A stretch of DNA of 62,893 nucleotides, counting the filler, from Sphacelaria rigidula (Eukaryota): assembly GCA_964200075.2 (NCBI GenBank). It is 9 parts of 9 records of this genome, joined end to end, with 100 filler letters (N's around TTAATTAATTAA, not from the genome) between each part and the next. Parts side by side here need not be neighbours in the genome. Positions count along the whole stretch, not along the records: positions 28,000 to 34,898 come from CAXNAA020017512.1; 8 more parts are not named here. One strand, given 5' to 3'. Both the position numbers and the translations under genes were made by a program. Under the pieces are notes generated by a model. The model was not told the origin of the DNA and ran no database searches. It was given only the letters and a program-made list of their open reading frames with translations. Below, piece by piece: positions 6,901-56,480 of this stretch (its first letter is position 1; each line of letters begins with the position of its first letter).

Positions 6901-7000
6901 NNNNNNNNNNNNNNNNNNNNNNNNNNNNNNNNNNNNNNNNNNNNTTAATTAATTAANNNNNNNNNNNNNNNNNNNNNNNNNNNNNNNNNNNNNNNNNNNN
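6901..7000. other. Artificial contig linker (N44-TTAATTAATTAA-N44). Identical linkers lie at 13901-14000, 20901-21000, 27900-27999, 34899-34998, 41898-41997, 48897-48996 and 55896-55995.
   Basis: Eight identical 100-nt spacers with stop codons in all six frames. The segments between them are 6900,6900,6900,6899,6899,6899,6899,6899,6898 nt, i.e. length-sorted unplaced contigs. Confidence 0.98.
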
Positions 7001-13600: not shown

Positions 13601-14960
13601 GTGAGATTTTTCTATCGGAACTAGTTGGCGTCGAAACTGTGCGTCAATAATTCATGCAATTTCGACGTCAGTACGTTCCGAAAGAAAAATATATTTCTCA
13701 TTCATCAGGGTCCCCTGTTCTTAGTCGACGGAAGTCGCTTCAGTAGTGAATTAGCGATACCATGACGAGCGCGAATTTATTATGGAAACGGCAGGGGGAA
13801 GCGCGGAGAAATAATTCGGACACGTAGCTTCCCCCCCCCCCCCCCCCCCCCCCGGGGGGGGTGGGAAAAAAATAGTGTTTTTTTTTTTTTTTTTTTTTTT
13901 NNNNNNNNNNNNNNNNNNNNNNNNNNNNNNNNNNNNNNNNNNNNTTAATTAATTAANNNNNNNNNNNNNNNNNNNNNNNNNNNNNNNNNNNNNNNNNNNN
14001 GGACTTCTTTTGTTGTCGGCGTGTGCGGTGCGCCTGGGACCGGCGGCAGGGTGTCGGGGGGGGGGGGGGGGGGGGGGGGGGAGGGGTTCGCGAATAAGCG
14101 GAAGATGGTCAACCATATCGTCGGTTACGATTACCGGCGTCGGAGGTCAGCCGTCGAAGTTGTTCCGAAAATATGTCCGGCGCCCAACGAGTTAGTTGAG
14201 GGTACTCTGCAGCGTCAGGAATTACGCCATGTGTAGGTATGTTTCATGACGCTGCACATTCGCCCGTACGTACACAGGAAGGTCAGCCTGACGCCGCATG
14301 TTGTCCTTGTCTTATGAGATGGCGAGCAGGCGAATTTCATCCGTTGCACAAATCCGATTCGATATCCGGCTGTAATTCGGCTATATGCTGTAATCTGGTG
14401 GATGTGTTTCAGTACGTGATGAAGTTTCGCATGGTACTCTGTTGTGCTAGGAGTAGTCCACTCCTGCTCTACTACGTCTGGCTCCAGCTACACCCGGCTG
14501 TACTCTTGCAAGTCTAGAGCATGTTCGTGTTTCGATGAATTCGTAACATGACACTTCATCGTGCGAATGATAGTCGAGTCTATTGCGAGATCGATCCCAC
14601 CCCTTCTCCACGTACTGTACCGCTTGTATTTCTTCTCCGATGCGGCATCCTGGAAATGAATACGGTTCACGTCTCGACTCGTATTTTTAGATCGCGCTGT
14701 GACACGAATAGCGCCTCTATTCACTGACTAAAGCTTGATTTCATGCACGGGTCGATTGTCGCACATCAACATTAACTGATCACAGAGAGATCCGGCCCTG
14801 GTCACGAGATGGACGTACAGTATCCTGGCCAAAAAAAACTGGAAGAAGTCGCTACAAAAACTCTTTATCCGGATGCAATCTACACAATCCGATTGCTCGA
14901 ACAAAGTACGCTGTCCGATGGCACGTCCCATATCCGACTCTAATCTATTGAATCCGGCAG

Positions 14961-20838: not shown

Positions 20839-21842
20839 ACGCCCCCCCCCCCACGCTCGCACCACCCAACCACAGAAACAAAAACCCAAAAAAAAACAAA
20901 NNNNNNNNNNNNNNNNNNNNNNNNNNNNNNNNNNNNNNNNNNNNTTAATTAATTAANNNNNNNNNNNNNNNNNNNNNNNNNNNNNNNNNNNNNNNNNNNN
21001 AAAACAAGAAGAAAAAACAAACAATGTAAGAAGAAAAAAAAAAAAAAACGGATCCTCATTTTTCTGGGAGGGGGGGGAGGAGGGAGAATACACCAAAACC
21101 AAACGTGGCCTGTAAGTGAACTGCGAAATACTGTTCCGATTTTCTTCCTACCCCATCGCTAAACGGCCCATTAGCCGGCCAATATGTAGAGTTGGGGCGT
21201 AAAATTTGGTATGGACAATTCATAAGGCATGAAGAAACAAATAACCACTATACACAAGTGTATTTTTATTTTTCAAGAGTTAGGGGCAGTGATCAATTTT
21301 CAGGTATCAGTACAAATCCTTCAACACATGAAAGAAAAGAAAAAAACTCTTGTGCACAGGTATCTGTTTTTAGTATGCCGTATTCGTTGTCCATACCAAC
21401 TGTTAGGGTCCAACTCTAAATATTGGCCGGCTTTTTGGGCCCGCAAACTATGAATTCGCTTCTTTGCTGGCTTAGCCTGTATTGGCGAGCGATTTTCACG
21501 TACTGAAGTAGGGTACCGAATTGCAGTAGGACCTGATGTGTAGGCTGTATTTGATGGTTCTGCTGCGGGCTCTTGGATGTCCATGTTAACGATATCCTGA
21601 AAGTATTTTGGGTGCTGCCTTAGAGGAGCGTTTGCATTCGAAAGTACACTGAGTTTTCTTGCGACTATTGCCACAGTTGTGTTTCGGGGCAGGCGATGCC
21701 TCCCGCGTTGGGTAAATGGTTGCTGTAGCTCATATCGTACTTTTGCTGCTCGGTGTCAGTAGCGTATACAATCTTACCGGCCCTCGCCCCTCGGTCGTTT
21801 TGCGTACGTGCGCTGTGGTGTTTTTTACCCACCTGCCTGAAG

Positions 21843-24800
21843 GCGGAGCTTGCGGAGGCAAATCGTAAGGCAGACCAGCGCATCATCTCGGCACGTGCTG
21901 TGCAATTGGACCTGGAGAAGCTGCGTCCGCGAGTGTGTCGCCTGGTTGCTTCAGTCACAGGTACCTCCGCCAAGGTATTCGGCGGTGCGGAGGAATCGGA
22001 ATGGTCAACCGACTCACACGGGGGTGGGGGCTGGAGCGGAGACCGGTGGGGTCGGGGCGGCGGTTTGTTGGGGTATGGCACCGGTGCAGGTGTCAGCAAG
22101 GATGAACCGAGAACGTTGTCTGGGGTGCTTCGCCGGCTCGCTGAGGGTAAAATGTCTGTTCACCCAGTCGAGGCAAAACATGCTGGTGGTGGTGTTGGGG
22201 GTGGAGGTGGAGGTGGTGGTGGCAGCGTTTCTTCCTCGGCGTCGATGTCTGCGGCCACCGCGCGCGCCTATCCGTACTCGCTGTTCCCGCAAGACTTCGC
22301 CGACGATCCATTCCGTGGAAGCCGGGCTCCGGCTATCGGAGGTGCTTCGACTAGGGCACTGGCTCGAGGAAGGAGGGCGGCTGGATTGGCGGCGGCGGCA
22401 GCGGCGGTCGGAGGCGGCTCCAGTGCGCCCGACCCGGGTCAGGAAGGGCTCCGAGCGTCTCTGGATGAGCTGTGCAATCTGCACGAGGAGCTCGGGGCTA
22501 TCGGGAGAATGGACCCCGGCTCGGACAGTAACATCGGCCGCCTGATGTCGATTCAGATACGGCGCGCTGAGACCGAGGCGCGACTGGGAGAACACGCGGC
22601 GGCAATGTCTGACGCAACACAAGTCCGCGAAAGCGCCGCTGAGGCGGCGCGTGCAGCCGCCGCGGACGCTGCCCGCGATCGCACGGTGGCGAGGCGTATG
22701 CGGATCGGAGAGCCCTACATCCCAAACACCAGGCGAGTCGTCGCCGCTCCGGCCCCTGCACCTCCTGTAGAGGCGGATGAGGCAGAAGACGGTACGGATT
22801 CCTCTGCAACGAGTCCTGCCGGTGCTATTTCTGCTGCTTCTGCGGCGGCCACGTCGTCGACCACGGCATCAGCAGACACGGCAAAAGCGACACGGAGTCC
22901 GTACGCCAGGGAAGGAGGGAACCTCTACGTACCACCTCCCCCTCGTGGACGCCGGACTGGGCCGCAGCGAGATGATGGCAGTGTACAATCGACGAATAGA
23001 TCTGGAACGTCGGGAACGGCGGCCGCGAATACTCAATGGGAGAGGCAGCCGACGGGCAAATATATCCCCGCCGCGAGGCGAAGACCGCAGTCGCATGATC
23101 CGGAGCCCTCACGCCAGTCTAGCACCAGCGCATCGCGGTCAGTCAGAGCGGCGGCGGTAGCGGTGGCAGCCGCGACGACGTCCGGCTCGAGCGGTCCGTC
23201 CCCACATTCGCAAGCTCCCGCGGCACCAGCGCCCGCGGCCGCTCTCTTCTTCCCTCCGTCGGCTGCCAGGGGTGGCGGCGGGGTGGGAGGCGGCGGGCAG
23301 CCGCCGCCTATGCCATCCGCCGCGTTCCAGTTCGGCCGCACGGCCTCGGGATCTGCGGGTCTTCGAACCGTTTTCCCTGCTGGTGGCGGCTCTTCGGCGG
23401 CATCGTCTCACCGGCCGAGCGGTGCGGGAGTTTCCGTGCGCCGAGCAAGAGCCACCAACCGGCGAGGCTCCAGGGCGGAAGAAACTGAGAGATTTTTGAC
23501 TGGGAACGCGGCGGACGAAGGCGGGGATGGCGCTGAAGCCTTCTTTTCGGCGCTACCGCCTTTGCCTCCTCCCGCCCCACAGTACCGTGGTAAAGGGGCC
23601 CCTGCCGTAGGTGCGCCATCGTCGGCGAGTGGGTCGGTCCCCGGCAATGCGGCGGCTGCGGCAGCCGACGCGGCGACAGCGGCGAGGGGGGCGGGTGGAG
23701 CAGGGACTGGAACGGGAGCACCCTCTGACGGTGATCCCGCATCGGCTTCTCAAGGGCAGCAGGCCTCGGAAGTGGCGCCCGAGCTTGCAGAGCTCGTGGA
23801 GTTATACTGCGGCCGTTGTCAGGACGCCCAAAGGCGTTTGCGGTCGGCTGTTGCGGAGAGAGAAGCCCTGTCTGCGTCTACCCTGGCGTACCTACGCCGT
23901 GGGCGCCGAGACGGGGCGGGTGGGTCGTTCACTGCAGGGGCTGGCGGAGGCAACGCTGGCAGCAGTGCAACTACCACTAGTTTACTGAGCAAGGCTACGA
24001 CCAGGAGAGGGTCGACCAGTTGGGGCGGTGACGGGGGACAAGCGGGAATGAGGGGCACGGACAAGGGAGTTGCGTGCTGTTCCAAGTGCACGGAGGAGGT
24101 GAGGTGTTCTGTTGGTGTATAGGCTTGCTGTGCATATCTTGATTGTGTTAATCCTGTCGAACTTTCGAAGGTTAGGATCGACGTTGCATGCATACGGAGC
24201 GTGTGTGCAAGTTCTACTTTCGTGTGCATTTGATCGGAGCGGTAAGAGCCGGGTACTGTTTTCTCATGAGTTCGGCTGTCAGCATTGACCGGTTAAGACA
24301 GCTGGTATGTGTCGGGTTTCTACAGGAAGTCACAACGATTGTGGAATACACGCCCCACCTCCTCACCTCACCACGCCACGCGAGTGAGTGAGATTTTGCT
24401 GCTGAAAATATACTATCTCCGCCCTTCGCGCGTCAAGTCGGGCGATTGCATTACCATGTGCAGTATTTTACATTTGCTCTCATTCCACGATCTCAGCAGG
24501 TGACTCGGTTGTGTTGTTGTTGTCTTCACATTAAAAACCGTTCCGATATCTGCGCGGTACATTCGAACTGGGCATCTGATGCGGACGCCTTCCGTGGTCA
24601 CAGGCTAGCAAAATAAAATAAAATAGACCCAGATTGAAAAAGCTCACAAAACGCGATACAAGCAAAACAGGGATGAATAATGAGAAAGAAAGGGAGTACA
24701 TGTGGCTAACCTCAGAAGATCCGGTGCCGCAGGTGGCCATTCGGACTTCAGGGGGTGGCACTCGGTTTTTGAACTCGACGCGCGACAAGTGGAAATTAAC

Positions 24801-27899: not shown

Positions 27900-27999
27900 N
27901 NNNNNNNNNNNNNNNNNNNNNNNNNNNNNNNNNNNNNNNNNNNTTAATTAATTAANNNNNNNNNNNNNNNNNNNNNNNNNNNNNNNNNNNNNNNNNNNN

Positions 28000-28070
28000 G
28001 AAAGGGATGCGTGGTCAATGGTCAAACGACTAAGGCAAGCAACAAATGAGTACGCCCCCCCCCTACTCCC
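28000..28070 (+). mobile_element. 3' terminus of the poly(C)-tail LINE
   Basis: AAAGGGATGCGTGGTCAATGGTCAAACGACTAAGGCAAGCAACAAATGAGTACG then a C-run; reads KGCVVNGQTTKASNK* just before the tail. Matches 56102-56168 and 6180-6278 in reverse. Confidence 0.8.
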
Positions 28071-28121
28071 TCTGATCTGCTTTGTATGCAATTGTCAATT
28101 CAACTAACGACGGGCGAGCAG

Positions 28122-31100
28122 GGTGAACGTCGGTTCTCTCTGGGCGGCGTGGTGGACGACCACTTCCTGTCGACGGGAGTGTTTGAATTCGAAGCGCCCG
28201 AGCAGACTGGTCCTACGGTGAGCGCTACGGTCGTGTATGCGTGAGTGGCGCTTGCTTGGCTGCTACTATGCGCACAGGCCGTTCTCGAGCTATAACGTCC
28301 ATCTCGAGCACCACCGGAAGACAAGTCGGACACAGTGTCCAGCGCATCCATCTCGCTTTACTTTCCCACAATATGGATCGCTTGCATACTCCTCCGTGGT
28401 TTTATGCCCGTAGTCAATGCGGGATTACCGTTGAAGCACCTGTTTCAGGCATCTCCTCGGAGTTGGAAGCAACACGACTCACTTTGACGTCCTTTCAAGG
28501 TAACAACCGATGGTATTCACGATATCAGAACCCATCGCACACGCACGGCATAGTAAAATGACGCCTTCCGACGGACGCTTGAGGGAGCGTGTATTGAACT
28601 GTGCCGTACGAATCGTTTTGTCCGGCGTAGACTAAGGCCAGTGTATTTGATTCATGAATGATGACTGGTTCTGCCGTCCGTATACGCAAAATTCGGCAGC
28701 ACGTACCACAGCCTGCAAGGTAACACACCAGGATGACTATCCTCCTACAAAAATGTTGCTTCACGTCGAGCGCACCCCTGCCGATCTTTCTGTCGCTGTT
28801 AATTTCCTATGGTCGACCGCTTGGCTGGTTGGTTGATTGATTAATTTCATATCCTGGACAAGAGACTGCATTGTTGAAAAGTGTGCTGCGTACAGTCTCG
28901 AGCATTGCGTCTATTCCAATAAATATTACACTGCATACGGTACACAGGACACTGTTTTTGACAAGGTAATCCATTGTCCAGTGTGTGGTTGATTCATTGG
29001 TCGATTTCGCACATTCTTCTATAATCCCTTCAGGGGTGTGTTTTGCGTGTTTAGCCGCACTCACAAAAAGGGCGTACCCACGGTGAAAACAACGGAAACA
29101 CCAGACCAAGGAAGTCGAGCAAGGAGGAAGATGCAGGAACAAAAACTAGAAAGCATGGCAAGCTGAACAATGAGAAAACGGGAATATCCGGTCACGATGA
29201 AAAGCAATATACTTGAATAAAGAATAGTAAGATGAAACGAATAATGGTTAATATGCATGGAAATAGGAACGGCTGACGGGCGACCAGATGAGGATCATGG
29301 CCGCTGCGCAAGACAGCTTGAACGCACAGTACGGGGCTTCCGTGTTCTCCGACTTCGCCTTCAACGGGCTTGGCATCCTCGACAAGGTGACTGCTGTGTA
29401 CCGTACAACTCCTGTTGTCCTAACACTCCGACTACATGTACACGGCAATGACCGACATTGTGGCCAAACCTTGCGAGTTTGCGTCTTTCTAGTGAAGAAA
29501 TAATTTACACCGCCTTGTACGTGTTGGAGAAATGCAAGCCAACCCGAATAGGTCACCATATGAGACCTCAGAAGTATATTCATAGGCGATCCATCTACTG
29601 AGAATCATATGTACTGGTAGGTGGCTTCCTGCGGTTGATTCCTTATAGGACATGGTGATGTGCGATTTGGTTTTCGTAAGTCGGAGGCGGAAACAACCAC
29701 ATCTGATGTAACCTAGCTAGCTTGAACGATTTTGGTGGTTTGGGTGATGATGGTGACTGCTTCTTCATTCACCACATGAACAATCAGGGCACAGGCCTGC
29801 AACAGACGGTTGGTGTCGGGGTTTGGGGTTGTCTCTGCTTCCGCTTGGGCGTAGTCAGTCCATCCTTGATGTACGGGCGCCTTTCGTCTGCATACAGCAG
29901 CGGCATGGGTTTGCCCTCTTGCATCCAATCAATCTCCACCTTACAGCGGGTGAATGCTCAATAGCTAAAGCTCCGCAATTCGTGCAAGCTGGAGCTCACC
30001 TCTGTTTCCGATTGTCACCAATTGGATACGATATACACAGTATATTTACTAACAGCATATTTTGGACGTGTTCCCCTACTCTTACTGCGCTGCCGGATGT
30101 GGCGCCCGTCCTCGTTATCCCTTCAGGTGGAATCTGCCTACCGTGCTGCTGGCCCTAACGCTGATATTGCCCTTTTGCCCAAGGGACAAAAACCCAACCC
30201 TCCCGAAGGTAAGCGCTCAGTGTTGTTCTCCGTATTTTGCGTGGGATGCACCGCCGTGAGCCCGTATTCAAGCAAAGTCTATAACGAGGACTCATAATCA
30301 ATCCTTCCTAATTGTGACGGTTGAGATCCTTTTTGTTATTTTGAGTTGGGTGCATCGGCAATACTACCTGCAATAAGGCCGATGTAGCAGCAAAGCGAGT
30401 GATTCTGGCCTACCGTTATGCCGCCCTATTCCCGGCCCATTTCTACACAGGCCTGTCGGGAATCGTTTCCGCACTACTTCAGGGTGTTCTTCTCTTTCAG
30501 CCGCGTGTTTTGCATATCGCCGTATGGATAGCCGACGCAAACACGTAATTCGACTTCGGTTTGTCATCGCGTGTCTGTGTCGTCATCCATCCCACCCTCA
30601 CTCTCCAAAACTCTACACTGCCGTACGTGAACTTGCTGAATACAATCGACCTATGCTGATTCAATCGTGTGAAGTACTGTAAACTTGCACAACATCACCC
30701 CTTCCTACTGCCTGTCTCCTCGCTTTTTTTACGACCGCGTGTGTTACAACCGCCGAAAAATTATCAGGAATCGTGCCCCAACTGCCGGTTAACTGGCTGG
30801 CAAACTCCGTGCCGGGCATGGCTCAGGAGTTCCCTACCTGGAGGGCCAAAGACGATCTGCTCGACGCCACGATCAGCCAGGCAATTCTGGACAAGTTCCA
30901 CTGGCAGAGCCACACGTACTCGCATCTGGCCAGAGACAACCTTGGCCAGTCCGACTGTGATATCGAGGACGGTGGTGAGCGATGGGGCATACGAGTACAT
31001 GCATCAATTTAATAGCGTGCACTACGTTCGTCCACTGTACGAAACGCTCGCTCTCCTTGTCGCAGACGTATCGAACATATCACAGTAGTGTGCATTGGCG

Positions 31101-32170
31101 TGCATTGACTAGAATACATGCGCAGTGCGTTTACACTTGATACATGCGCTTCGATGAGGCGACATTTACTGTGCTCGGCTTTCCTTGTAAGCGCCTTTAA
31201 ATCAAGGCACGATCCAACAAACCCGATGCCATATTTGACCGAGCAACGTTTGAACCGAAGATCGCAGCGGAAGGGCATACACGACTGGATATGCGAACAA
31301 ACATGTTCGGTATGAAAATAGCGATTGATTCAGCTTCCACGCAATTCACAAACTCAGCAGCTGACTTGAAGGCGTTGACGGCCGCAGTGACCAAGGCGTG
31401 AAATATTCGCCCGAAAGCAAATTTCATGTCTCTTGAATTACGGACGGTTGCTATATATGTCGCCCATAACTGTACTACTCCGGTGGTTATCAGGTAACGC
31501 ACAGATCGCGGTGATCACCGGAATGTTCGACAATGATAACTACAACTGGCGAAGCATGACAAGCCCTGGAATCACTGGCCTCTTCAACGCTAACTGCCTC
31601 GCGTCCGGGGCTGCGAACCTGATGAGATGCTACCCCGGGGACAACACGTACGATGGAGAGCTGACGACCGTGAGCCTCGTCAACATGGAGAGCCAGTTCC
31701 ACTCCATATACACAACGGTGGCCACCAATGGTGAACGCTCACTCGCTTCCAAAGAGCACAATGTTTCCGTTCCCTATGTGGTCTCAAACCATGGCCGTGT
31801 AGTATCTTTCGTACAGTGCGATCACGCTAGCGTAGTACGAACAGCAGTTGAAACCGTGACAATACCTTCGAGTTTCCGTAGCAGAACAACACAGGTTGTT
31901 TGTGGAATATTAAAAATTAGGGGGTACAAATCGATGATGATCACATCTATTCTTTCCGTGATGGTTTTGTGTTCGCATGAGTGAGCCTGCCAGAAGACCG
32001 CAGTATCCTGGGGTGTGATGGACGACCATCGAGCCGCTTTTTGTATAAGGGTGGCACCGTAGGTTTCGTTCGTCCCGCCAGTTTGAAATTCAAGAGAATT
32101 TTTCCGCGTTGGTCAGGCAAGAAGCAGGCCTAACCTTTCGATCGCTCACCACGTACCACACACTACCCTG

Positions 32171-32204
<34 letters not shown>

Positions 32205-34768
32205 GGATCCGTTATGCGATCGATTCCATTGACCGTGACAAATTCACCAATCCGCTGCGAATCCAATTTCTCCCGGTGTATGTATGTTCTCCTGCGCCGG
32301 TCGAACTCTCGCTGCATCATGTCTGCCGCGGTGGTTGGAGACGAAAAACGTTTCAGCGGTGTCTCTCGCTCATATCTGCCCTCTTTTTGTGCAGCGGACT
32401 TGTTTTGCTCTCGGTGACCTTTACCTTGCTATGTCCTCGCTGTGTCCACCAAAAATGTGTTTCTTGCGAGCGGCTCACTACTACTGTTGTATATGCGAGT
32501 GGGGGTGCTTATCATGTGGCAAAGCCAAAACTTACCCCACCGACCCGACAATGCTGGCCATTAAGAGGTCATCATTGTTGGAGGTGTATCTCGGATGGCT
32601 CGCTCGTCTCGTGCTCTCGCGTCTACACGCAAACAGGCTTGAAACTCACGAAAACGCCGCCGTTGCTGTGATGTATGCGTGTTGTATGTGTGTATGCAGG
32701 GTACGCTGGTGCGCAGATTATTCCTCGGTTCGCCACCAATGTCTACTACAATTGTGTGACTACCGATGTGAGTTGCTATTGTCATATTTCGAAGCATACG
32801 TTTACGCATTAATCGAATGCTGCAATGTCCTTTTTGTACGCCGCCGTGCTCCGTTGGGGTAATGTTCATGGTCCAACTGACACCGGTGGAGTGGAGAGAA
32901 CGCGGTTTCGATCCTCGCAAGCTGCTTTGACTTTTTCATCAAAGTATATGATTTTCGCCGTTGAAAGGGTGAGAATGTGAGGAGACGAAGTGTTTTGAGT
33001 CTGCTTTGACGACAGTTGACGCGGTGCGAGAGTAGTGCTGACCCCATCCGCGAGACCGAGAAACAAGGGGTGTTCCGGGGAGGAGTGGGCTGATCCTTCG
33101 GACCACGAACTCTTCCCGAGGGAAGGGAGGGGGGTCAAAAGTGTGACGGGAAAACAAAACATTGCCCCAGCTGCTCTATTTATTCGTCCGCTGGTCATAA
33201 ATGATCATCGTCTGCCCCGCGCGTGGTATTCTCCTCTTTGTAATGCTTTGGCGAAATGTTATTTTTTTCTGGTACACACCTATCATTTTGCTATTTTGTT
33301 TCATTGAGATCAAGTAAGTACCTTCAGGTTGGCGTGTTTCTCGTCGCGCCCGCTTTAAGCGTACGGGAGAGGCTGTTACCATGAATGGTTCACCACGCAC
33401 TCTCTGCAAAGACTGCGTGTTTGCTCGTCTAACTTCAGTCTCTCCAGCGTTGCATGTGTCGGGCTGCCATGTGTTACCAAAGCCACCTATGAATTACATA
33501 TGCCGAAATGTTGAGGTGTACCAGCGCACCGCAAACACTTCGAACGGACACTGCACATCCACATTCCAACCCTTACAAGGCCCCCCGCCATCACATGGCG
33601 CTCGTCTATCGCTACCTCCCCCTCGCGCTGCGCTTGGTAATATCATGATCCAGTGCCTGATCAAGGAGAACGAGAAGATCCGTCGCGATGTATGCGGCTG
33701 CATTCCACTCAACCCCAACCTTCCCATCCAGGTACGCGCCTACGCACATAGCTCCATGATGCACCGTGATTAGTGCGTGTTCAAGTCTGCGCGCCTTTCA
33801 GAGAAGGAAATGTTTTACTTCTAACCTTATGCCCCCTTGAAACGACATCGTAGTGAGCGGTTTAATCAAAACCCATTTTCCCCCTGGCACGTGCCTAGTA
33901 CTAAATTCTCATGCATTGGATCAGCTCCCACGTAGGCCATTGACTCTCCTGGTGGCATTTTTATCATGGCTCATGTGTATTAATGTGTTGCTCTTCCAAA
34001 AGCCCCGTCGTATGTCCAAGGCGCTGCGTTGGCTTGCTGTGTGTAGGCGTGTAGGTATGAATTGCTCCATGAGACTATAACCCCCCCCCCTGGGAACGGC
34101 ATCTGACATCAAAGAGCGTTTTCAAAATAATGCACACCCTAGACATACGGGTTAATGGTTGCAGTAGGCCCATACCTGATGCAGTTTTTCTGGTGCAATT
34201 ATTGGTAATATATCATCCAGGATGTGAAATGATGAGACGTGGATTGTCGCCGATATTCTCTTGATGTTTACTCACTCTCGGTCGATATGCGAATGAAGCG
34301 ATGCATTGACACCACCAGGGCGAGGGAAGCGCGGGCTTGCCTTTGATTGATCCAACCCGCGATACCAACATGTAAGGCAGGCGTGTATCGGAGGAGAGAT
34401 GGGTTGATCCCTTGAGATCACGGACTCGTCCCGAGGAAGGGATGAAGTCGGAATTGAGTAAAACGGGGAAAAATCTGACGTACATATATGCACTCGTTCA
34501 TATTTGCGGTATGCCCCTGCAGTCATGCGCCGACTGCCCTGAGGACGACATTCAGTCCTTTGGCACGGTGGAGAAGCTTTTCAAGACTGAGCAAGACACC
34601 ACGACGCGGTACATCCTCAGTGGTCGCAGGGACAAGTACATGTTCCACCAGGCTAACGTGATCCCCACGCCCACCCCTACCGGAAAAAAGTCGTTGCTGG
34701 AGTACTGGTACGAGGTGGTGTTCGCCAAGATGGCTGAGTTCATCAACACGGACTCCTTCCCCATCATG
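28122..34768 (+). CDS. Partial spliced gene: Agd3-like (carbohydrate esterase family CE18-like) polysaccharide deacetylase catalytic domain. Exons 28122-28217, 29267-29386, 30127-30208, 30768-30974, 31494-31730, 32700-32767, 33654-33731, 34523-34768.
   Basis: Eight AG/GT exons with compatible phases give one open frame: GERRFSLGGVVDDHFLSTG...FAFNGLG...FHWQSHTYSHLARDN...MTSPGITGLFN...PGDNT...NGYAGAQIIPRFATNVYYNC...RDKYMFHQAN...SLLEYWYEVV. Order and wording match fungal Agd3 as I recall it (G.RR..L..QVDD, H.SHTFTH, PPAITGLHN, GDNT, NGY.G..I.PRWAT.IYYNC, DPFMFHQAN). Confidence 0.85.
32836..33160 (+). mobile_element. tRNA-derived SINE family C, diverged full-length copy (intronic)
   Basis: Head GTACGCCGCCG...TCCAACTGACACC...CGCGGTTTCGATCC and body TTTGACGACAGTTGACGCGGTGCGAGAGT are colinear with 62304-62643. 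Confidence 0.75.
34305..34472 (+). mobile_element. SINE family C, internally deleted copy (intronic)
   Basis: TGACACCACCAGGGCGAGGGAAGCGCGGG joined to TGATCCAACCCGCGATACCAA...GATGGGTTGATCCCTTGAGATCACGGACTCGTCCCGAGGAAG. Confidence 0.7.
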
Positions 34769-34844
34769 GTGAGATACGCGCAACACATATTCGGTATACT
34801 CTGTCGCTGCCCTGCCATAACCCGGCCGCTTCGTGTTATCAGCT

Positions 34845-34898
34845 GAGTGATGCTACGGTAGGGGTAGAGAAATAATTTCTGAGATTAGAATTGTTAGG
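34845..34898 (-). mobile_element. End of the GAG-terminal MITE (copy 5), cut by the contig end
   Basis: GAGTGATGCTACGGTAGGGGT...TTTCTGAGATTAGAATTGTTAGG, as at 8717-8770. Confidence 0.85.
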
Positions 34899-36383
34899 NN
34901 NNNNNNNNNNNNNNNNNNNNNNNNNNNNNNNNNNNNNNNNNNTTAATTAATTAANNNNNNNNNNNNNNNNNNNNNNNNNNNNNNNNNNNNNNNNNNNNTT
35001 CAGCTGGAAGATGTGGCTGAGAAGCTCGGCCAGGACGCTGCCAGGCGTTTCGCCGAAAAAGCTGCAACAGCGGTTGGGGCAGCCCATTGCCCCCCGGCTC
35101 ACACCGATCCCCCCGCTCGCTTACTAAACGTCAACACAGTAACCGCGGCAAGTGAAAACGCTGCGAGGCACGCAAGATTATGTAGGAGACACCAGGCGGA
35201 CGTGATTGCAAGCTTCCAGACAGGCGATATACTAGCAAAATGGTCGACAAACGACCGGGACAGCCTTTCGCAACCAGCCTAACACAACTACAAGTACAGT
35301 CAGTAACTACAGTTCACTACAGTCCAGTAAAACTGAATAACGATGTAACGGTCTTCTTTGCCAGAAGACAGAAGGTATGCAATGTCATTGCATGAAATAC
35401 CAACGCCACCCACGAGGACAGACGGTCCAAAGGCGATAGCGCCAGCCGGAGTAACACACCTCACGCCGCACAAAGTACGGCTGTGCAACGTTCAGACATG
35501 ACCAACCCCCAGTATAGAGGTGATGTCGTGGGAACGTATAGCACAAAGCACAGGATGAGATATGCCGCAAGATCACAGCCTAGAAAGTGGCAGCCTGTAT
35601 CGGATATGCCAAAGTAACGGCCCCGCCTACGCTGCACCAGGAGTATGTATAACGGTGGGGTACATGACATTCTCGTCGCCGTTATGGAATGATCAAACCG
35701 CAGTTTTGTGCCGTATAAACGCGTATGACAGAGTACAGTAGGGTGTACGGTATGAGTTTACCCTTGACATGAGCGGAAAATATCATGATAACACGCAGTA
35801 CAGAGGAGTAGGTGAACACATCCCCACAGAGCCTAACGGTGACTGTCTGCGAATACAGACAGTAAACGGGGGCGTACGTGAGGTAAATGTGCCGTCGGTT
35901 TCGCCTTTGATATTTCAACTTAGGCGCAAACTTGCTATGACGCGGTACAAAGCATCTACTGCGTGTGCGGCGTGAAGATTGCTCCACGGAGAGTCAGCCG
36001 TGCACTCTGGCCGGGGTTACAAAACACCGACGGGTCGAACAATTCGTCATACCCGTAAAATAGAGAACCTTCGAACCTTCTTTTCTTCCACATTCCATTC
36101 GCACGGATCTGAAAAACACACTTTGGGCGAATCGTTTGCTCAAAAGCTGTAGAACGACAACCATTTCTTGCCCGAAAAAAACGTCGAATGCAAATCGTCA
36201 ATTTTCCATCAACGGTTCCAAAAGGGTTGAACACCGTGGCACAAGAGGACTCGAATGAGATACTTCGCGGTTACAGGATTGACTGATATTGCATGATGCA
36301 GACTTTTCTTTCCTCATGACTTGTCACGGGGCGGGAGCGGCGTGACGAATGCACATCGTCGGTGACGGTCATTTTTTGTAGAT

Positions 36384-41166: not shown

Positions 41167-41997
41167 CTACACAGGTTGGTTGGTTCACGCTTTTGACCCC
41201 AATTTCACTATGCGGCCTAGGCCTCCCGCGATACCAACCCACATGTCGCATACATGCTACCATACTGACCGCCATGGACAGCTGAAGATATTTGTTCGCC
41301 CGTGTTGTGCCAAATGTTCAACCCAACTTTCCGCATCTCCACAGCTTCACACTGTAGTAGTCGCCACCAGCTCAGGAACCTCACGGATTTTTTTTTTCAA
41401 ATCGGTTTCATGAGATCGAAATATACCCCGAAACCATGGTACTTTGATGGTGGTTTTGTCGAGAAATTTCTACAGATGCCACCGACGGAAGACCCAAGAA
41501 GATGTCCCTGAAATGTGTCCTGAGAAATCATAGACTTCCCTCGAACTTTTGCGGCTTCCGGAGATCCCCACGAATAGACTCCCCGAAGGTGGTTGAGAAC
41601 ACCTTGAAATAAAAAAAGAAGCAAAATTCGTCAAGGCGTAGTCCAAGGGACACGTAATGAAGTGTCGATGCGTTACTGAATATGCTGATACAAGGGGGTT
41701 GTTTTGACGTCAAACGTACTCGAAAAAGTCATTACAAAACTAGAGCGAAGGAGTTATAATGGGATTTTTACCTTTAACAGTGTTTTCGTGAGATTGAGAG
41801 TATATGATACGATTGAGAGTGAAAAGCGGTCAATCAGTGAATGACTGGATTGCGTCGCGTAAGGCACTACTATAGGTCTCAATGTGCTCTTTGCAATNNN
41901 NNNNNNNNNNNNNNNNNNNNNNNNNNNNNNNNNNNNNNNNNTTAATTAATTAANNNNNNNNNNNNNNNNNNNNNNNNNNNNNNNNNNNNNNNNNNNN

Positions 41998-48896: not shown

Positions 48897-49105
48897 NNNN
48901 NNNNNNNNNNNNNNNNNNNNNNNNNNNNNNNNNNNNNNNNTTAATTAATTAANNNNNNNNNNNNNNNNNNNNNNNNNNNNNNNNNNNNNNNNNNNNATCA
49001 CGCAAGAAAAAAAGGACGAAACACATATATATCCGATTTATTGCAAGACCGGTTTTGTAGGTGGGTACTAGAAAGACTCAAGTCTACGTTCACACACATA
49101 CGTAC

Positions 49106-52100: not shown

Positions 52101-54618
52101 CGGGGCCGGGGGGGGGGGCTTCTCATTCGTGACCTACCTCATTCGCTTGATCATTGACAAAGCATCCCTTTCGAGACGAAGCACCGTTCCTACTTCCGAC
52201 AGAGACATCTGCAACACTCCGGTGCTCATTACGTTTCTTCCATACACTACACAGAACTGTTCACGTATCTTATCCCCGTTCTGTTTCGCCGCCTGCGGTC
52301 AACACCTATCTCCTAGCATAGCCATCGTTTTTTCCGTACTGTTTGATGCATTAAACGATTTAAAGCCACCTTCATCCACGTCTCGCATTCCTCCTATAGA
52401 CCGTACGTCCCGTTCCTCCTTGTATACTTCACATTCTGCCACTGTATGAGTTCTATGCTTTATTGCTTCTCCACGGGGGCAATTCTGTGCATCTACTGCC
52501 TCCTCCCGGCTACTGGCGTATATTTTTCTCCTCTCTGGGAGGTTCTCAGGTCCCCCACCCGAAATGACAGTTTCAACTTTTTCGCCGCGTCTATCTGTCT
52601 CCTCTCTCAACAGGGGGGGAGAAACAACACTGTCCACCTGGGACCCTTCAGCTCACCTGCACAATACCCGAATACGCCTCAAGCACACTCTCTCTGAGAC
52701 CGTTAATGTAGTCCACCATATCCTCATCCTGGCCCTGGGTGGTTCCACATACGCCTTGCGCCTGCGCCAGCATGTTCATCGTCATCTGCGAAATACGGCA
52801 GGACGAAAAGGGGTGGAGTGGGTTGGGGAGGAAAGCACCACACACCAATATGTCATTCGCACCGAAACTCACCGTGTACCACGTATTCCTGACGTTATAC
52901 AAGCCACATCGTACACCCCTCACGAGGTCAAAAGAAACACCCACCAACGGTCCACGCCAAAATATGATCACATGAGCTCTTGCAACTTCTTCGAGCGCTC
53001 GTGCTCATCCCCCCCCCCCCCTCTCCCACTCCCCCCTCACGGTTTCCCGCTGGCCACCGGTTCAGAGTTCCGCCGATTTGGGACGGAAGGGGACAGGGCG
53101 TGGAGGCGTGCCCTCCCTGAAAGAAGGCAGCGAGATGGGCCTCAACCCCGTAGAATAGCCGTCTAACTGAAATCCAAGCATATACTCAGACGCTCAGTGA
53201 GGGGTCAACATATCTCCTATGACCCACCAATTGCACGTGTTTCTAATCAAGACCCACCTCCAGATATTGGCGGAACTCCCCCTGAATGGCCAGAGCGATG
53301 TCGCCCAAGCACGCAAGAACCACCGGCTTCACATCCCTGATATATCGTTCATCACCCACAAACCACACAAAATCATGCCGAACACATCATAAGAAGACGA
53401 AGCGAACACGATTACTACTGATAATACCACGCACAACAAAAAAACGACGGTGCAGGAATGTTGGTGGATAACAGGCTTGCGCTCCGCAGAACAACACCAG
53501 AACGGCATGATCATATTGCCATACATTCGTCATTTTGACCAAGATGTTCACATGTACAGCAATGTATATACTGTGACACATCTTGCGCTCCAAACCGTCA
53601 CATGGAGATCTTCATTGATCGCTCAAAGAACAAGCGCGACCCGCGGACGACTGGTACGGCCCATCTATCCCAGGACGAAAGGTGTGTGCAGGCTTTAGCA
53701 TCTCAATCAGTGTAGGGTATACGGAGCGCCTGGGGACGCGACGGGTACTTGGAGTTGATGAGCCTTGCACGGCATGAGCACAGGACAAGAAAGTGACACT
53801 AGGGGTGCGGCGCGCGCACCCTCAAAATAGAGGCGGTAATTACTACACAAACGAAAATAAACATGCGAGATCGTGTTCCGTAGCGTAGACAGACTGAGAT
53901 TCGGGTGTTTTACGAGAGTATACAAGAGGTGATGTTATCGGTAAATGACCTTCCCAAGGATACCGGAGTGTCCGGGACAGGGCTCGATACCCTGCTGGAT
54001 CACACCGAGATGCTCGGTACATATTCCGGTATGGTTTGGTACGCCAACCAAAAATCCCCGCACTTTCGGCTATACCTTGTCTACACAGAACACAACCTTG
54101 GAATTATGTATCATGATGCGGAGTGATTTTTCACGGTTGAAAAACAAGCACTGTAGGCAGCATCACGGAAAATACCGTTGGATAACGACACAAGTGCGAG
54201 GTTGACATTTTTTCAGATGCGTGTACACGCTGTAACATCTACCGTGCCATCGCATCAGCCGCGGAAGAAAATGGCAAGAGGGCGGGCAGCAAGCAAGCAG
54301 CGACGGAATCACTTTTTGAAATATCGACAACTTACTCCACAGCTTGTGATGAAACCGGTGCGAGTAGATCTGAACGTAAAAATGGCCACATTATCCATTC
54401 CTTCATGTTTCAATCCGTGGAACCGGACAACATATACAGAAACCTGAACCTGAATTCAGCGGGGGCTCGACGCGATCAACAGATCAAACCCACCGGTTAA
54501 TGCTAGCCCCCTCGAGGTTGGCCATGAGCCAGCCCATGATGTGCTGGCAGTATGGCAGCATATCCCTTTCCAAAGCGCGGCAAATATCGCCCACCACACC
54601 CGTCGCTACGATGCACAC
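49106..54618 (-). CDS. KPNB1: Partial spliced gene: importin subunit beta-1, C-terminal HEAT repeats. Exons 54618-54494, 53336-53258, 52785-52657, 49180-49106.
   Basis: Phase-compatible AG/GT exons: VCIVATGVVGDICRALERDMLPYCQHIMGWLMANLEGASINR / DVKPVVLACLGDIALAIQGEFRQYLE / MTMNMLAQAQGVCGTTQGQDEDMVDYINGLRESVLEAYSGIVQ / GLNEENNNQTSELMPYLPALMLFLD. These are hallmark importin-beta motifs (GLVGDLCRAL, VKP.ILS.FGDIALAI, DMVDYLNELRE.CLEAYTGIVQGL). Confidence 0.95.
52088..52600 (-). mobile_element. Decayed 3' ~500 nt of the poly(C)-tail LINE (C-terminal CCHC zinc-knuckle region), intronic
   Basis: NLPERRKIYASSREEAVDAQNCPRGEAIKHRTHTVAECEVYKEERDV...NSTEKTMAMLGDRC*PQAAKQNGDK..., running into the common 3' end and a C-rich tail (G-run at 52088-52119). 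Confidence 0.8.
53945..54105 (+). repeat. Interspersed repeat, second copy at ~56868-57003
   Basis: AGGGCTC.AT.CCCTGC...CCGGTATGG.TTGGTA.GCCAACCAAAAATCC...TACAGAACACAACCT.GGAA occurs in two different contigs. Confidence 0.75.
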
Positions 54619-55895: not shown

Positions 55896-56034
55896 NNNNN
55901 NNNNNNNNNNNNNNNNNNNNNNNNNNNNNNNNNNNNNNNTTAATTAATTAANNNNNNNNNNNNNNNNNNNNNNNNNNNNNNNNNNNNNNNNNNNNAGCGT
56001 CATCGCCAACCGACGCCAACCCCATCGAGGGTCC

Positions 56035-56480
56035 GCCCCTACAAAGCCGGGACGGAGCACGCCGGATTCTCGTCGGACCAGGCTTTCGGGATGGGGGGGG
56101 GCGTACTCATTTGTTGCTTGCCTTAGTCATTTGACCATTGACCACGCATCTTTTTCGAGACGGAGCATGCTTTCGGGATGGGGGGGGTGAACTCGTGATC
56201 CTGCATGCCGTAGTCATAAGACCATTGACCGTGTATCCCTACAAAGCCGGGACGACGCACGCCGGGTTTTCGCCGGACCAGGCCCGCACTCAAACCACCA
56301 AGCGCGGAGCGCCGTGATATATTCCGCGAGTCACATGCAGGGTGAGCCGCATCCTCCTAAGATTGTTCGGCCCTACGCGTACTAATTATCCACCATAAAG
56401 ATGGCAGCCTCACATGAATTGCTCCATTTTTTGGGATCGCCACTTCAAGAGACAGCCACGGCCTACACTGCCTCATGGGT
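56035..56480 (-). mobile_element. Nested retroelements: family A fragment, LINE 3' end with a 19-bp duplication, full-length family A copy
   Basis: GCTTTCGGGATGGGGGGGG occurs at 56082-56100 and 56169-56187, flanking the LINE end (56101-56168). Family A spans 56188-56480. Confidence 0.85.

What the first reader, a model, noticed from the sequence alone, without database searches (positions are those of the whole stretch)
28122..34768. Intron-rich Agd3/CE18-like deacetylase with intact catalytic motifs in an apparent brown alga
Seen: eight phase-compatible exons, invisible as a unit in the ORF track, that splice to ~380 aa containing VVDD, HTYSH, IPRFAT and MFHQAN. Known: Aspergillus fumigatus Agd3 (founder of CE18) uses an Asp-His-His metal site with a catalytic Asp/His pair to de-N-acetylate galactosaminogalactan and make it a cationic adhesive. 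Brown algal walls are described as alginate, fucose-containing sulfated polysaccharides and cellulose. Inference: the alga has either an unrecognised hexosamine-containing matrix/adhesive polymer, or a repurposed esterase (e.g. for O-acetylated fucoidan, or for microbial biofilm polymers). Seven introns carrying the host's own SINEs argue against fungal or bacterial contamination and suggest an old, possibly horizontal, acquisition.
Basis: partly seen in the sequence, partly recalled or inferred. Interest (0 to 1): 0.8.

Follow-up and report, generated by a model that had tools for sequence, protein, structure and literature searches.

The report
Brown-alga Agd3-like polysaccharide deacetylase gene fragment
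This is a real, spliced and transcribed piece of a brown-algal gene for an Agd3-type (CE18) sugar-polymer deacetylase with its whole catalytic site intact, which hints that brown seaweeds handle an amino-sugar wall polymer nobody has described yet.

Summary
Window 28000-34898 is one 6,899-base contig; the window is nine contigs joined by N spacers. It carries eight GT-AG exons (28122-34768, 378 codons). These are identical to the NCBI protein "unnamed protein product, partial [Sphacelaria rigidula]". Spliced contigs from three runs of one study join all seven introns exactly; the DNA run laid has none of these joints.

The product is a CE18/Agd3 catalytic domain. Pfam Agd3_CE scores E 7e-41, and the Agd3 crystal sequence scores E 1.6e-22. 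The AlphaFold model (pLDDT 94) has Agd3 as best fold match, at E 1.7e-24. All seven catalytic residues shown by mutagenesis in Agd3 are present.

The gene is cut at both contig ends. Transcript contigs continue about 2.5 kb upstream and 3.3 kb downstream.

It belongs to a large brown-algal paralogue family, some members fused to WSC or GH114-associated modules. The published brown-algal CAZyme census lists only one CE18 protein but reports an amplified GH114 family. An intronless relative sits on a giant-virus-like contig.

"SINEs in seven introns" is not supported. Substrate and the direction of any gene transfer remain open.

The parts
28000..34898 (.). One assembly contig (6,899 bases), bounded on both sides by N44-TTAATTAATTAA-N44 joiners. 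Everything outside it in the window belongs to other contigs.
   Evidence: P0002's contig length of 6,899 comes.
28122..28217 (+). Exon 1 of the fragment (annotated from 28119). It holds CM1, VVDD, at 28149-28160: the catalytic base Asp plus the metal-ligand Asp. An AG acceptor lies just upstream, and the transcript continues 5' off the contig.
   Evidence: joint 28216>29266; loose end before 28119.
29267..29386 (+). Exon 2.
   Evidence: joints 28216>29266 and 29384>30125; tblastn support.
30127..30208 (+). Exon 3. It encodes the variable insertion region. No tblastn hit from the nine relatives tried, but transcript contigs include it.
30768..30974 (+). Exon 4, with CM2, HTYSH, at 30911-30925 (the two metal-binding His).
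31494..31730 (+). Exon 5, the best-conserved block (ITGLFN...GDNT).
32700..32767 (+). Exon 6, with CM3, IPRFAT, at 32720-32737 (the Arg that holds the catalytic base).
33654..33731 (+). Exon 7.
34523..34768 (+). Exon 8, with CM4, MFHQAN, at 34640-34657 (Met plus the catalytic-acid His). A GT donor follows at 34769, and the transcript continues 3' off the contig.
   Evidence: contigs of 3,467, 3,257 and 2,886 nt begin or end at 34625-34768.
28000..28063 (.). High-copy interspersed repeat at the 5' end of the contig, with a poly-C tail. Copies lie on three other contigs of the window.
   Evidence: DNA word depth about 3.9 million.
32836..33159 (.). Interspersed repeat in intron 6, 67-69% identical to copies on two other contigs of the window.
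   Evidence: raised depth.
34348..34441 (.). Fragment of the same repeat family in intron 7.
   Evidence: depth about 178,000.
34839..34898 (.). High-copy repeat at the 3' end of the contig, inside the next, cut-off intron. Four copies lie on contig 2 of the window.

Best explanation
Window 28122-34768 is the middle part of an expressed, intron-rich nuclear gene of the brown alga Sphacelaria rigidula. It encodes almost the whole catalytic domain of a CE18 (Agd3-type) metal-dependent carbohydrate deacetylase.

Mechanism, by homology with Agd3:
- Asp14, His149 and His153 hold a divalent metal and its water.
- Asp13, positioned by Arg258, acts as the base.
- His339, in the Met337-x-His339 motif, acts as the acid that releases acetate.

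Shown here: the gene structure, the splicing, family membership by sequence, motifs and fold, and the fact that the gene is cut at both contig ends.

Inferred, architecture: the full protein is probably much larger. It likely has a CBM87-like domain in front of the catalytic domain, a small beta-domain behind it, and extra N-terminal modules as in its nearest paralogues.

Inferred, function: the enzyme acts outside the cell on an N-acetyl-hexosamine-containing matrix glycan. The most likely candidate is an alpha-1,4-GalNAc-type (galactosaminogalactan/Pel-like) polymer, which would become cationic on deacetylation. The amplified brown-algal GH114 family would then be the matching hydrolase.
For: Gene model:
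- Exact eight-exon mapping of P0002, with GT-AG at all junctions.
- Contigs of three runs (X1-X3, one study) join all 7 of 7 introns at exactly these sites with no mismatches. None of these joints is in the DNA run X5.

Family membership:
- Pfam Agd3_CE scores 140.8 bits against a cut-off of 27.6, E 7.2e-41, covering profile positions 4-337 of 366.
- The PDB sequence search gives 6NWZ (Agd3) at E 1.6e-22. The next hit is at E 0.46.
- Counting positions along the alignment puts P0002 D13/D14, H149/H153, R258 and M337/H339 opposite Agd3 D377/D378, H510/H514, R613 and M666/H668. Mutagenesis showed these are required in Agd3 (PMC7229062, passages read).
- These residues are kept in 25-27 of 27 brown-algal rows.
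- The AlphaFold2 model has mean pLDDT 94.2. Its best Foldseek PDB match is 6nwz_A, at E 1.7e-24 and TM 0.78. The next match, NDST1, is at E 1e-5.

Architecture:
- A model of the 749-aa Undaria paralogue P0033 covers the whole Agd3 crystal chain: E 2e-41, TM 0.78 normalised to Agd3, 757 alignment columns.
- The transcript contig has about 2,540 nt 5' of exon 1, and another runs about 3,300 nt past exon 8.

Substrate lead:
- The nearest paralogues P0018, P0044 and P0211, and the more distant P0212, carry Pfam GH114_assoc fused to Agd3_CE.
- Mazeas et al. 2024 (PMC11468063, passages read) report GH114 at about 5 genes per brown-algal genome. Its reported activity is alpha-1,4-galactosaminidase.
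- The Phaeoexplorer preprint lists GH114 among markedly amplified families (passage read).
- By the passages read, the GAG and Pel deacetylases characterised so far (Agd3 in CE18, PelA in CE21, PelADA in CE26) are close structural kin of this fold.
Against: - No biochemical evidence exists for any member of the brown-algal clade.
- The clade sits on a very long stem (1.4-2.2 substitutions per site). It scores lower against the Pfam model (127-170 bits) than fungal or environmental members (179-213 bits). Specificity may therefore have shifted.
- CE4-like folds include O-acetyl esterases.
- No hexosamine polymer is described in brown-algal walls in the papers I read. One literature search gave no relevant hit among the 15 papers listed.
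- No GAG synthase (Gtb3), GH135 or epimerase partner could be looked for, because no genome is held for this window.
- The signal peptide and accessory domains of this particular gene lie outside the contig and were not seen.
- Pfam's CBM87 model does not reach its cut-off in any brown-algal protein scanned. The best is P0222 at E 0.095.
- The runs called 'RNA?' are only guessed to be RNA, and all three come from one study.
Confidence: 0.85

Rival explanations
1. Same enzyme fold and chemistry, but the natural substrate is an O-acetyl ester on brown-algal fucose-containing sulfated polysaccharide (fucoidan). The family would be the alga's own fucoidan acetyl-esterase set, used for wall remodelling.
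For: - The catalytic machinery is the generic metal-water/Asp/His machinery shared with CE4. From general knowledge, not a call, CE4 also contains acetyl-xylan esterases.
- O-acetylation of fucoidans is also general knowledge rather than a call.
- The family is large. Many members carry WSC carbohydrate-binding repeats, like other brown-algal wall-remodelling enzymes. The passage read reports WSC orthogroups expanding.
- The long stem of the clade allows a change of specificity.
Against: - The characterised relatives in the passages read (Agd3, PelA, PelADA) and the next-best fold match, whose PDB title calls it the heparan sulfate N-deacetylase NDST1, are named as deacetylases of amino-sugar polymers.
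- The fusion partner in the nearest paralogues is a module named for its association with GH114 galactosaminidases.
- GH114 itself is amplified in brown algae. A fucoidan esterase role does not explain that.
Confidence: 0.2
2. The enzyme de-N-acetylates a GlcNAc-based glycan (a chitin- or PNAG-like polymer, or GlcNAc on wall glycoproteins) rather than a GalNAc polymer.
For: [quoted passage not shown]
- Phaeoviruses of brown algae carry a chitin-synthase-like gene next to a UDP-GlcNAc dehydrogenase (PMC5122149, passages read).
- A relative of this deacetylase sits on a giant-virus-like contig.
Against: - No chitin synthase, UDP-sugar dehydrogenase or GH114 gene was found on the 38.6 kb viral fragment. 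The fragment is estimated to be 17% of a genome, so this is weak evidence.
- The closest characterised enzyme is specific for alpha-1,4-GalNAc.
- The GH114-associated module points to galactosamine.
Confidence: 0.15
3. The family is directed outward, modifying exopolysaccharides (Pel or GAG-type) of epiphytic bacteria and fungi on the algal surface, as a defence or microbiome-shaping tool.
For: - Pel and GAG are widespread microbial biofilm polymers, and GH114/Ega3-type enzymes disrupt such biofilms (title of reference 27 seen; PMC10485009 seen as a search listing only).
- Brown algae have both GH114 and this family.
Against: - Deacetylation makes these polymers more adhesive, not less. That is an odd defence.
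- There are many paralogues with wall-sensor-type WSC repeats.
- The family is conserved from Discosporangium to Laminariales, which fits an endogenous matrix role better.
Confidence: 0.07
4. The fragment is not an algal nuclear gene. It is a contaminant, a silent viral insertion or a pseudogene.
For: - The contig is short and its ends are repeats.
- An intronless relative lies on a giant-virus-like contig.
Against: - Seven spliceosomal GT-AG introns are removed in transcript contigs of three runs.
- The reading frame is open across all eight exons, and the catalytic residues are intact.
- Unique parts have the same DNA depth (71) as expected for the host run.
- The contig shares repeats with other contigs of the same assembly.
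- Orthologous clades occur across brown-algal orders.
Confidence: 0.02

Closest known systems
Aspergillus fumigatus Agd3 (CE18 founder, PDB 6NWZ; Bamford et al. 2020, PMC7229062)
   Same: - Best and only significant PDB sequence match (E 1.6e-22).
- Best fold match (E 1.7e-24, TM 0.78).
- All residues of catalytic motifs CM1-CM4 are conserved: D377/D378, H510/H514, R613, M666/H668.
- A long insertion lies between CM1 and CM2 (135 residues here).
- A full-length brown-algal paralogue model matches all three Agd3 domains.
   Different: - About 25% identity in the fold alignment.
- The brown-algal sequences form their own clade on a long stem.
- Pfam's CBM87 model does not detect their N-terminal domain.
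- Paralogues add WSC, extensin-like or GH114_assoc modules that Agd3 lacks.
- The gene has at least nine introns counting the two cut ones, and belongs to a multi-copy family rather than a five-gene GAG cluster.
- The substrate is unknown.
Brown-algal Agd3_CE paralogues (for example Ectocarpus 'Agd3 deacetylase domain-containing protein' / 'WSC domain-containing protein'; Scytosiphon, Pylaiella, Undaria and Cladosiphon proteins)
   Same: - 47-60% identity over the whole 378 aa.
- One clade with 100% SH-aLRT support.
- Same catalytic residues.
   Different: - The window's gene groups, with moderate support (89 and 92), with the subclade whose members carry GH114_assoc. It does not group with the WSC-bearing subclade, which holds the other Sphacelaria protein P0037.
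- Its own accessory modules are off the contig.
Pel deacetylases PelA (CE21) and Bacillus cereus PelADA (CE26)
   Same: Metal-dependent de-N-acetylases. [quoted passage not shown] P. thermotolerans PelA appears as a weak fold match to the full-length paralogue model (E 6.6e-8, TM 0.24).
   Different: No significant sequence match. These are different CAZy families.
Heparan sulfate N-deacetylase domain of NDST1
   Same: Second-best fold match (E about 1e-5 for the window's domain; E 6.5e-16 for the full-length paralogue model). Its PDB title names it an N-deacetylase of heparan sulfate.
   Different: TM only 0.41-0.50 and 9-13% identity. No sequence-level match.
CE4 polysaccharide deacetylases (PgdA, IcaB/PgaB, chitin deacetylases)
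   Same: Same barrel core and the same Asp / His-His / His chemistry.
   Different: - Pfam Polysacc_deac_1 does not hit P0002 at E <= 0.01.
- Fold matches are weak (E 2.5e-4 or worse).
- The spacing between CM1 and CM2 is more than twice that of CE4, and the MT4 Asp is lacking, as described for Agd3.

Membership tests
CE18 (Agd3 family) | Significant sequence match to the Agd3 catalytic domain (Pfam PF25115 above its gathering score; match to Agd3 itself). | tested here: met
   140.8 bits against a cut-off of 27.6, E 7.2e-41. 6NWZ at E 1.6e-22.
CE18 (Agd3 family) | CM1: adjacent Asp-Asp (catalytic base D377 and metal ligand D378). | tested here: met
   VVDD: D13 and D14 aligned to D377 and D378. 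Kept in 27 of 27 brown-algal rows.
CE18 (Agd3 family) | CM2: HxxxH metal ligands (H510, H514). | tested here: met
   HTYSH: H149 and H153 aligned to H510 and H514. Kept in 26 and 25 of 27 brown-algal rows.
CE18 (Agd3 family) | CM3: the late Arg that coordinates the catalytic base (R613). | tested here: met
   IPRFAT: R258 aligned to R613. Invariant in alignment A1.
CE18 (Agd3 family) | CM4: M-x-H with the catalytic-acid His (M666, H668). | tested here: met
   MFHQAN: M337 and H339 aligned to M666 and H668. Kept in 27 of 27 brown-algal rows.
CE18 (Agd3 family) | Fold of the Agd3 CE domain. | tested here: met
   Model pLDDT 94.2. Top Foldseek PDB hit 6nwz_A at E 1.7e-24, TM 0.78, rmsd 3.6; next hit at E 1e-5.
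CE18 (Agd3 family) | Three-domain architecture: CBM87-like N-terminal domain, CE domain, C-terminal domain. | tested here: inconclusive
   The flanking domains of this gene lie off the contig. The paralogue P0033 model matches all of Agd3 (TM 0.78 normalised to Agd3). Pfam CBM87_Agd3 is below its cut-off in every brown-algal protein scanned.
CE18 (Agd3 family) | Metal-dependent de-N-acetylation of alpha-1,4-GalNAc polymer. | not testable with these tools
   Needs an enzyme assay.
CE18 (Agd3 family) | Listed as CE18 by expert CAZy annotation. | tested here: inconclusive
   The CAZyme table of PMC11468063 (supplement MOESM3) lists exactly one CE18 protein, in Desmarestia herbacea. Its CE section lists no Ectocarpus protein under CE18, although Ectocarpus proteins hit PF25115 strongly. 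In the part I read, S. rigidula has no rows.
Fungal GAG biosynthetic cluster (uge3-sph3-ega3-agd3-gtb3) | Physical clustering of the deacetylase with the synthase, epimerase, GH135 and GH114 genes. | not testable with these tools
   The contig holds only this gene fragment, and no genome is held. GH114 is present and amplified in brown algae according to PMC11468063 and the Phaeoexplorer preprint. In the supplement, all four GH135 rows visible in the passages fetched (of 5 occurrences) are Discosporangium.
CE4 | Match to Polysacc_deac_1 and the canonical MT1-MT5 spacing. | tested here: not met
   No Polysacc_deac_1 hit at E <= 0.01. CE4 structures match only at E >= 2.5e-4.
   ARAGORN found 0 genes in the window. 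Rfam gave no tRNA, 5S or 7SL match in the contig at E <= 1. Repeats occur only at the contig ends and in introns 6 and 7.

The most novel reading that the evidence does not exclude
Brown algae, and giant viruses related to those that infect them, make and remodel a so far undescribed cationic amino-sugar exopolysaccharide of the galactosaminogalactan/Pel type (alpha-1,4-GalNAc/GalN). An expanded Agd3-like deacetylase family would switch it from neutral to cationic. The amplified GH114 family would trim it. The polymer would act as the glue that binds anionic alginate and fucoidan in walls, adhesives or infection structures. The family would have moved between virus and host early in brown-algal history.
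Probability: 0.25. Interest if true: 0.85.

Novelty: new member of a known kind. Interest (0 to 1): 0.58.

Why it matters
Brown-algal walls are described as alginate, fucose-containing sulfated polysaccharides and cellulose. The published CAZyme census already flagged an unexplained, amplified GH114 family, whose reported activity is galactosaminidase. It lists only one CE18 protein.

This finding shows that a catalytically intact Agd3-type deacetylase family is present, multi-copy, expressed and modular across brown algae. Some members are fused to a GH114-associated module. That turns a vague oddity into a testable question: is there a GalNAc/GalN-type, or other acetylated, matrix polymer in brown algae, and is its charge tuned by deacetylation?

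It also extends CE18 beyond fungi and bacteria, to stramenopile algae and a giant-virus-like contig.

Tried and rejected
- Own-genome search: no genome is held for this window.
- SINE heads: Rfam on the contig gave only a chance-level mir-297 match at E 0.95. ARAGORN on the whole window found nothing.
- Run listing: no RNA holder is listed on record. The runs laid are only guessed to be RNA.
- Naming the nearest non-algal relatives:
  - Cluster look-ups named 6 of 10 proteins, including chytrids, Dactylellina and Corallochytrium.
  - In one search none of 10 got an organism name.
  - In one search the viral proteins stayed unnamed; four EukProt ids turned out to be Cladosiphon.
  - The profile search with A2 scored only the 7,999 candidates sharing most words. 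It returned 38 hits, 36 of them from the algal/viral clade. It did not label the outgroups.
- Protein Atlas: best score 0.90, with bacterial DUF2194/DUF2334 fragments and some Agd3_CE clusters. These are leads only.
- GH114_assoc link: a search with residues 1-160 of P0222 found only itself. Whether brown-algal GH114 proteins carry the same module was therefore not shown.
- Bacterial loci: the search for related loci on genome contigs failed, because the alignment had no stretch conserved enough. Not repeated.
- Family searches on the viral record found no NCLDV capsid, A32, chitin synthase, GH114 or UDP-sugar dehydrogenase. The fragment is estimated at 17% of a genome, so absence means little.
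- Other contigs of the window hold no further piece of this gene (tblastn with 9 relatives).
- Eight of the 26 ORFs of at least 170 aa in the window had no Pfam family.
- Literature:
  - 'Agd3' + 'brown alga': 0 papers.
  - 'CE18' + 'Ectocarpus': 0 papers.
  - 'Agd3' + 'alga': 13 papers; judging by the titles and abstract openings of the 10 listed, none concerns algal homologues.
  - One search was badly framed (any two of six terms) and is uninformative.
  - (galactosamine, brown alga, matrix, adhesion) listed nothing relevant among the 15 shown.
- Two supplementary PDFs of PMC11468063 could not be read and may bear on the CE18 count.

Full report
**What the window is.** The 62,893-base window contains paired runs of 44 N at regular intervals of about 7 kb. 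At the junction I read, the two runs flank TTAATTAATTAA. All eight junctions matched that pattern when the window was split on it. The window is therefore nine separate contigs of about 6.9 kb placed end to end. The finding lies in the fifth, window 28000-34898 (6,899 bases). Its neighbours in the window are not its neighbours in the genome. A tblastn of nine relatives against the whole window found pieces of this gene only in this contig.

**The observation.** Four of these ORFs hit Pfam Agd3_CE one after another, at profile positions 117-155, 161-235, 232-262 and 267-337.

A search with the largest exon found a 378-aa protein, P0002, at 99% identity over that exon. NCBI names it "unnamed protein product, partial [Sphacelaria rigidula]", on a contig of 6,899 bases. 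P0002 maps letter for letter onto eight blocks of the window.

Using the splice contexts and the RNA joints, the exons are:
- exon 1: 28122-28217
- exon 2: 29267-29386
- exon 3: 30127-30208
- exon 4: 30768-30974
- exon 5: 31494-31730
- exon 6: 32700-32767
- exon 7: 33654-33731
- exon 8: 34523-34768

This gives 1,134 nt, seven GT-AG introns of 519-1,049 nt, and intron phases 0, 0, 1, 1, 1, 0, 0. An acceptor precedes exon 1 and a donor follows exon 8, so the gene is cut by both contig ends.

**Transcript support.** No run is on record as RNA. However, four runs of one study hold 15-20% of the sampled words, close to the exon share of the contig. I laid three of them and one DNA run.
- In each of X1, X2 and X3, one contig of 3.5-3.6 kb joins all seven introns exactly at the GT..AG sites, with no mismatches.
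- The DNA run X5 has none of these joints and covers the unique parts of the contig at an even word depth of 71.
- In X1 the spliced contig has about 2,540 nt in front of exon 1.
- Other contigs (3,467, 3,257 and 2,886 nt) overlap the last 144 nt of exon 8 and run up to 3.3 kb further.

The window therefore holds only the middle of a much longer transcript. All three runs belong to one study, and their RNA nature is inferred from the spliced contigs.

**What the protein is.**
- P0002 matches Pfam Agd3_CE (PF25115) at E 7.2e-41, 140.8 bits against a cut-off of 27.6, over profile positions 4-337 of 366. No other family hits at E <= 0.01.
- Against all PDB sequences, the only significant match is Agd3 of Aspergillus fumigatus (6NWZ) at E 1.6e-22. 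The next hit is at E 0.46.
- Counting along the printed alignment, chain numbering is offset by 122 from Agd3 numbering. P0002 D13/D14, H149/H153, R258 and M337/H339 then lie opposite Agd3 D377/D378, H510/H514, R613 and M666/H668.
- In the passages of Bamford et al. 2020 that I read (PMC7229062), these residues are the catalytic base, the metal triad, the base-coordinating arginine, a conserved methionine and the catalytic acid. Mutating each abolished activity.
- In my alignment of 98 domain rows, the seven positions are kept in 25-27 of 27 brown-algal rows and 62-71 of 71 other rows.
- An AlphaFold2 model built on 54 sequences has mean pLDDT 94.2. Its best Foldseek match in the PDB is 6nwz_A (E 1.7e-24, TM 0.78, rmsd 3.6 Å). 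The N-deacetylase domain of human NDST1 follows at E about 1e-5, and CE4 enzymes at E 2.5e-4 or worse.

Every defining feature of CE18 that can be tested by computation is met.

**The family around it.**
- A scan of 1.84 billion representatives found only 368 clusters at E <= 0.001, and 15 at E <= 1e-30.
- Named relatives at 47-60% identity come from Ectocarpus (several species), Pylaiella, Scytosiphon, Hapterophycus, Undaria, Cladosiphon, Discosporangium and Choristocarpus. There is also a second Sphacelaria protein.
- Ectocarpus siliculosus alone has at least five distinct proteins. UniRef calls them "Agd3 deacetylase domain-containing protein" or "WSC domain-containing protein".
- Pfam finds WSC repeats in P0011 and P0031. 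It finds extensin-like stretches, below their cut-off, in P0025 and P0031. It finds the GH114-associated domain PF14741 in P0018, P0044, P0211 and P0212.

**First tree (quick search).** It used 98 rows from 95 proteins. I kept only hits covering nearly the whole domain, and dropped three near-duplicates and 92 partial hits.
- All 27 brown-algal rows form one clade (100% SH-aLRT) on a stem of 1.43 substitutions per site.
- P0002 groups with the subclade that holds the GH114_assoc proteins (support 89). In the second tree of 52 rows this support is 92.
- The WSC proteins form another subclade.
- Outside the clade, the nearest rows are unnamed environmental or MMETSP sequences with CBM87 + CE + EGF domains, weakly attached.
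- Chytrid, Dactylellina and Corallochytrium proteins lie further away.

**Architecture.** Pfam's CBM87 model does not reach its cut-off in any brown-algal protein I scanned. The best is E 0.095 in P0222. Yet a model of the 749-aa Undaria paralogue P0033 (pLDDT 81.3) matches the whole Agd3 chain: E 2e-41, TM 0.78 normalised to Agd3's 665 residues, 757 alignment columns. Further matches are to glutamine-amidotransferase-like folds, the fold that Bamford et al. describe for the CBM87 domain. The three-domain layout is thus kept in the family. For the window's own gene this part lies off the contig.

**Giant-virus relative.** A scan of IMG/VR found one contig of 38,613 bases, estimated at 17% of a genome, with an uninterrupted 763-codon ORF. 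The ORF is 51% identical to P0002 over residues 1-372.
- It begins with a hydrophobic leader and has DD, HTLSH, PRFAT and MFHQAN.
- It hits Agd3_CE at E 2.6e-37 and Agd3 itself at E 8.9e-26.
- Next to it lies a CHASE-type hybrid histidine kinase.
- The same record holds a VLTF3-like gene (E 2.2e-54) about 4.5 kb upstream and a D5_N primase-helicase domain (E 1.9e-9) about 4 kb downstream. These are core genes of nucleocytoplasmic large DNA viruses.
- No capsid or A32 gene was found in the fragment.
- In the 52-row tree, the viral protein forms a clade (98-99%) with three unnamed metagenome proteins. This clade is one branch of the unresolved base of the algal clade.

Genes of this family have therefore moved between brown algae and giant viruses. 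The direction is not resolved. Hybrid histidine kinases as a phaeovirus trait is something I recall, not something a call showed.

- Repeats shared with other contigs, or at high DNA depth, lie at the two contig ends (28000-28063, 34839-34898), in intron 6 (32836-33159) and in intron 7 (34348-34441). Intron 1 shows a slight rise. Introns 2-5 sit at baseline depth.
- Nothing resembles a tRNA, 5S or 7SL head.
- "Seven introns carrying SINEs" is therefore not supported. The repeats that do exist, the even depth and the spliceosomal introns still argue against contamination.
- "Old acquisition" fits the presence of the family in Discosporangium and Choristocarpus as well as in Ectocarpales and Laminariales. 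That these two genera are early-branching is my recollection, not a call result.
- "Horizontal" cannot be decided.

**Function.** The chemistry is well founded: a metal-activated water, an Asp base held by Arg, and a His acid. The substrate is not known. I favour an N-acetyl-hexosamine glycan of the matrix, most likely of the alpha-1,4-GalNAc type, for four reasons:
- Agd3 is the only close characterised relative.
- Members of the subclade that P0002 groups with are fused to a module named for its association with GH114.
- The brown-algal CAZyme study reports GH114 among the most populated GH families, at about 5 genes per genome. Its reported activity is alpha-1,4-galactosaminidase (PMC11468063, passages). 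The Phaeoexplorer preprint lists GH114 among markedly amplified families (passage).

O-deacetylation of fucoidan, action on GlcNAc polymers, and action on microbial biofilm polymers remain live rivals.

**Novelty.** The protein and its Pfam label are in public databases. The searchable literature has no paper linking Agd3 or CE18 to brown algae. The CAZyme table of PMC11468063 covers about 20 species, including Ectocarpus sp7. It lists one CE18 protein, in Desmarestia herbacea. Two supplementary PDFs of that paper could not be read.

The window's gene is therefore a new member of a known enzyme family, in a lineage where the family has gone largely unnoticed. Its interest lies in what it implies for brown-algal matrix chemistry.

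Noticed in passing
L001 2227-4518 (+), with L001 4565-6823 (-) and L002 1483-2379 (-): An IMG/VR contig of 38.6 kb carries an intronless 763-aa Agd3-like gene, 51% identical to the window's protein. It lies beside a CHASE hybrid histidine kinase, between a VLTF3-like gene and a D5-type primase-helicase gene. This looks like a giant-virus copy of the brown-algal family. It clusters with unnamed metagenome proteins P0215, P0213 and P0048.
   Followed up: partly
window 1-62893 (spacers at 6901-7000, 13901-14000, 20901-21000, 27900-27999, 34899-34998, 41898-41997, 48897-48996, 55896-55995): The window is nine contigs of almost equal length (6,898-6,900 bases) joined by N44-TTAATTAATTAA-N44. Gene order across spacers means nothing.
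   Followed up: yes
window 21729-24122 (+), on another contig: A 797-codon open frame in a 67% G+C stretch encodes an Ala/Gly/Ser/Pro-rich low-complexity sequence with no Pfam family. It may be a repetitive protein, or simply an open frame caused by the base composition.
   Followed up: partly
window 28000-28063 and copies at 56093-56156, 52110-52172, 6172-6231, 62843-62893: A short, very high-copy element ending in a poly-C run. Its word depth is in the millions in the DNA run and above 88,000 in the presumed RNA runs. It sits at contig ends and probably breaks the assembly.
   Followed up: partly
proteins P0021, P0025, P0031, P0210 (Ectocarpus); P0015, P0027, P0030 (Pylaiella); P0018, P0036 (Scytosiphon): Several paralogues of one species are reported from contigs of identical length (3,842,133; 573,958; 53,256). 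This suggests tandem arrays of Agd3-like genes in brown-algal genomes.
   Followed up: no
proteins P0060 (2,398 aa, Phlyctochytrium) and P0066 (1,926 aa, Chytridiales sp.): Chytrid proteins carry three and two complete Agd3 CE domains in tandem, with repeated CBM87 and Agd3_C domains. These are multi-catalytic CE18 enzymes.
   Followed up: no
proteins P0084, P0104, P0131 (unnamed environmental / MMETSP): The nearest relatives outside the algal clade combine CBM87 + Agd3_CE with EGF-like domains. This suggests a further, unnamed marine eukaryote lineage with CE18 enzymes.
   Followed up: no
window 32165-32213: A (TA/CA)-type simple repeat in intron 5, read as 'YIYIYIY' in translation. It breaks the DNA contigs of run X5 and gave the only, chance-level, Rfam hit (mir-297, E 0.95).
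   Followed up: no
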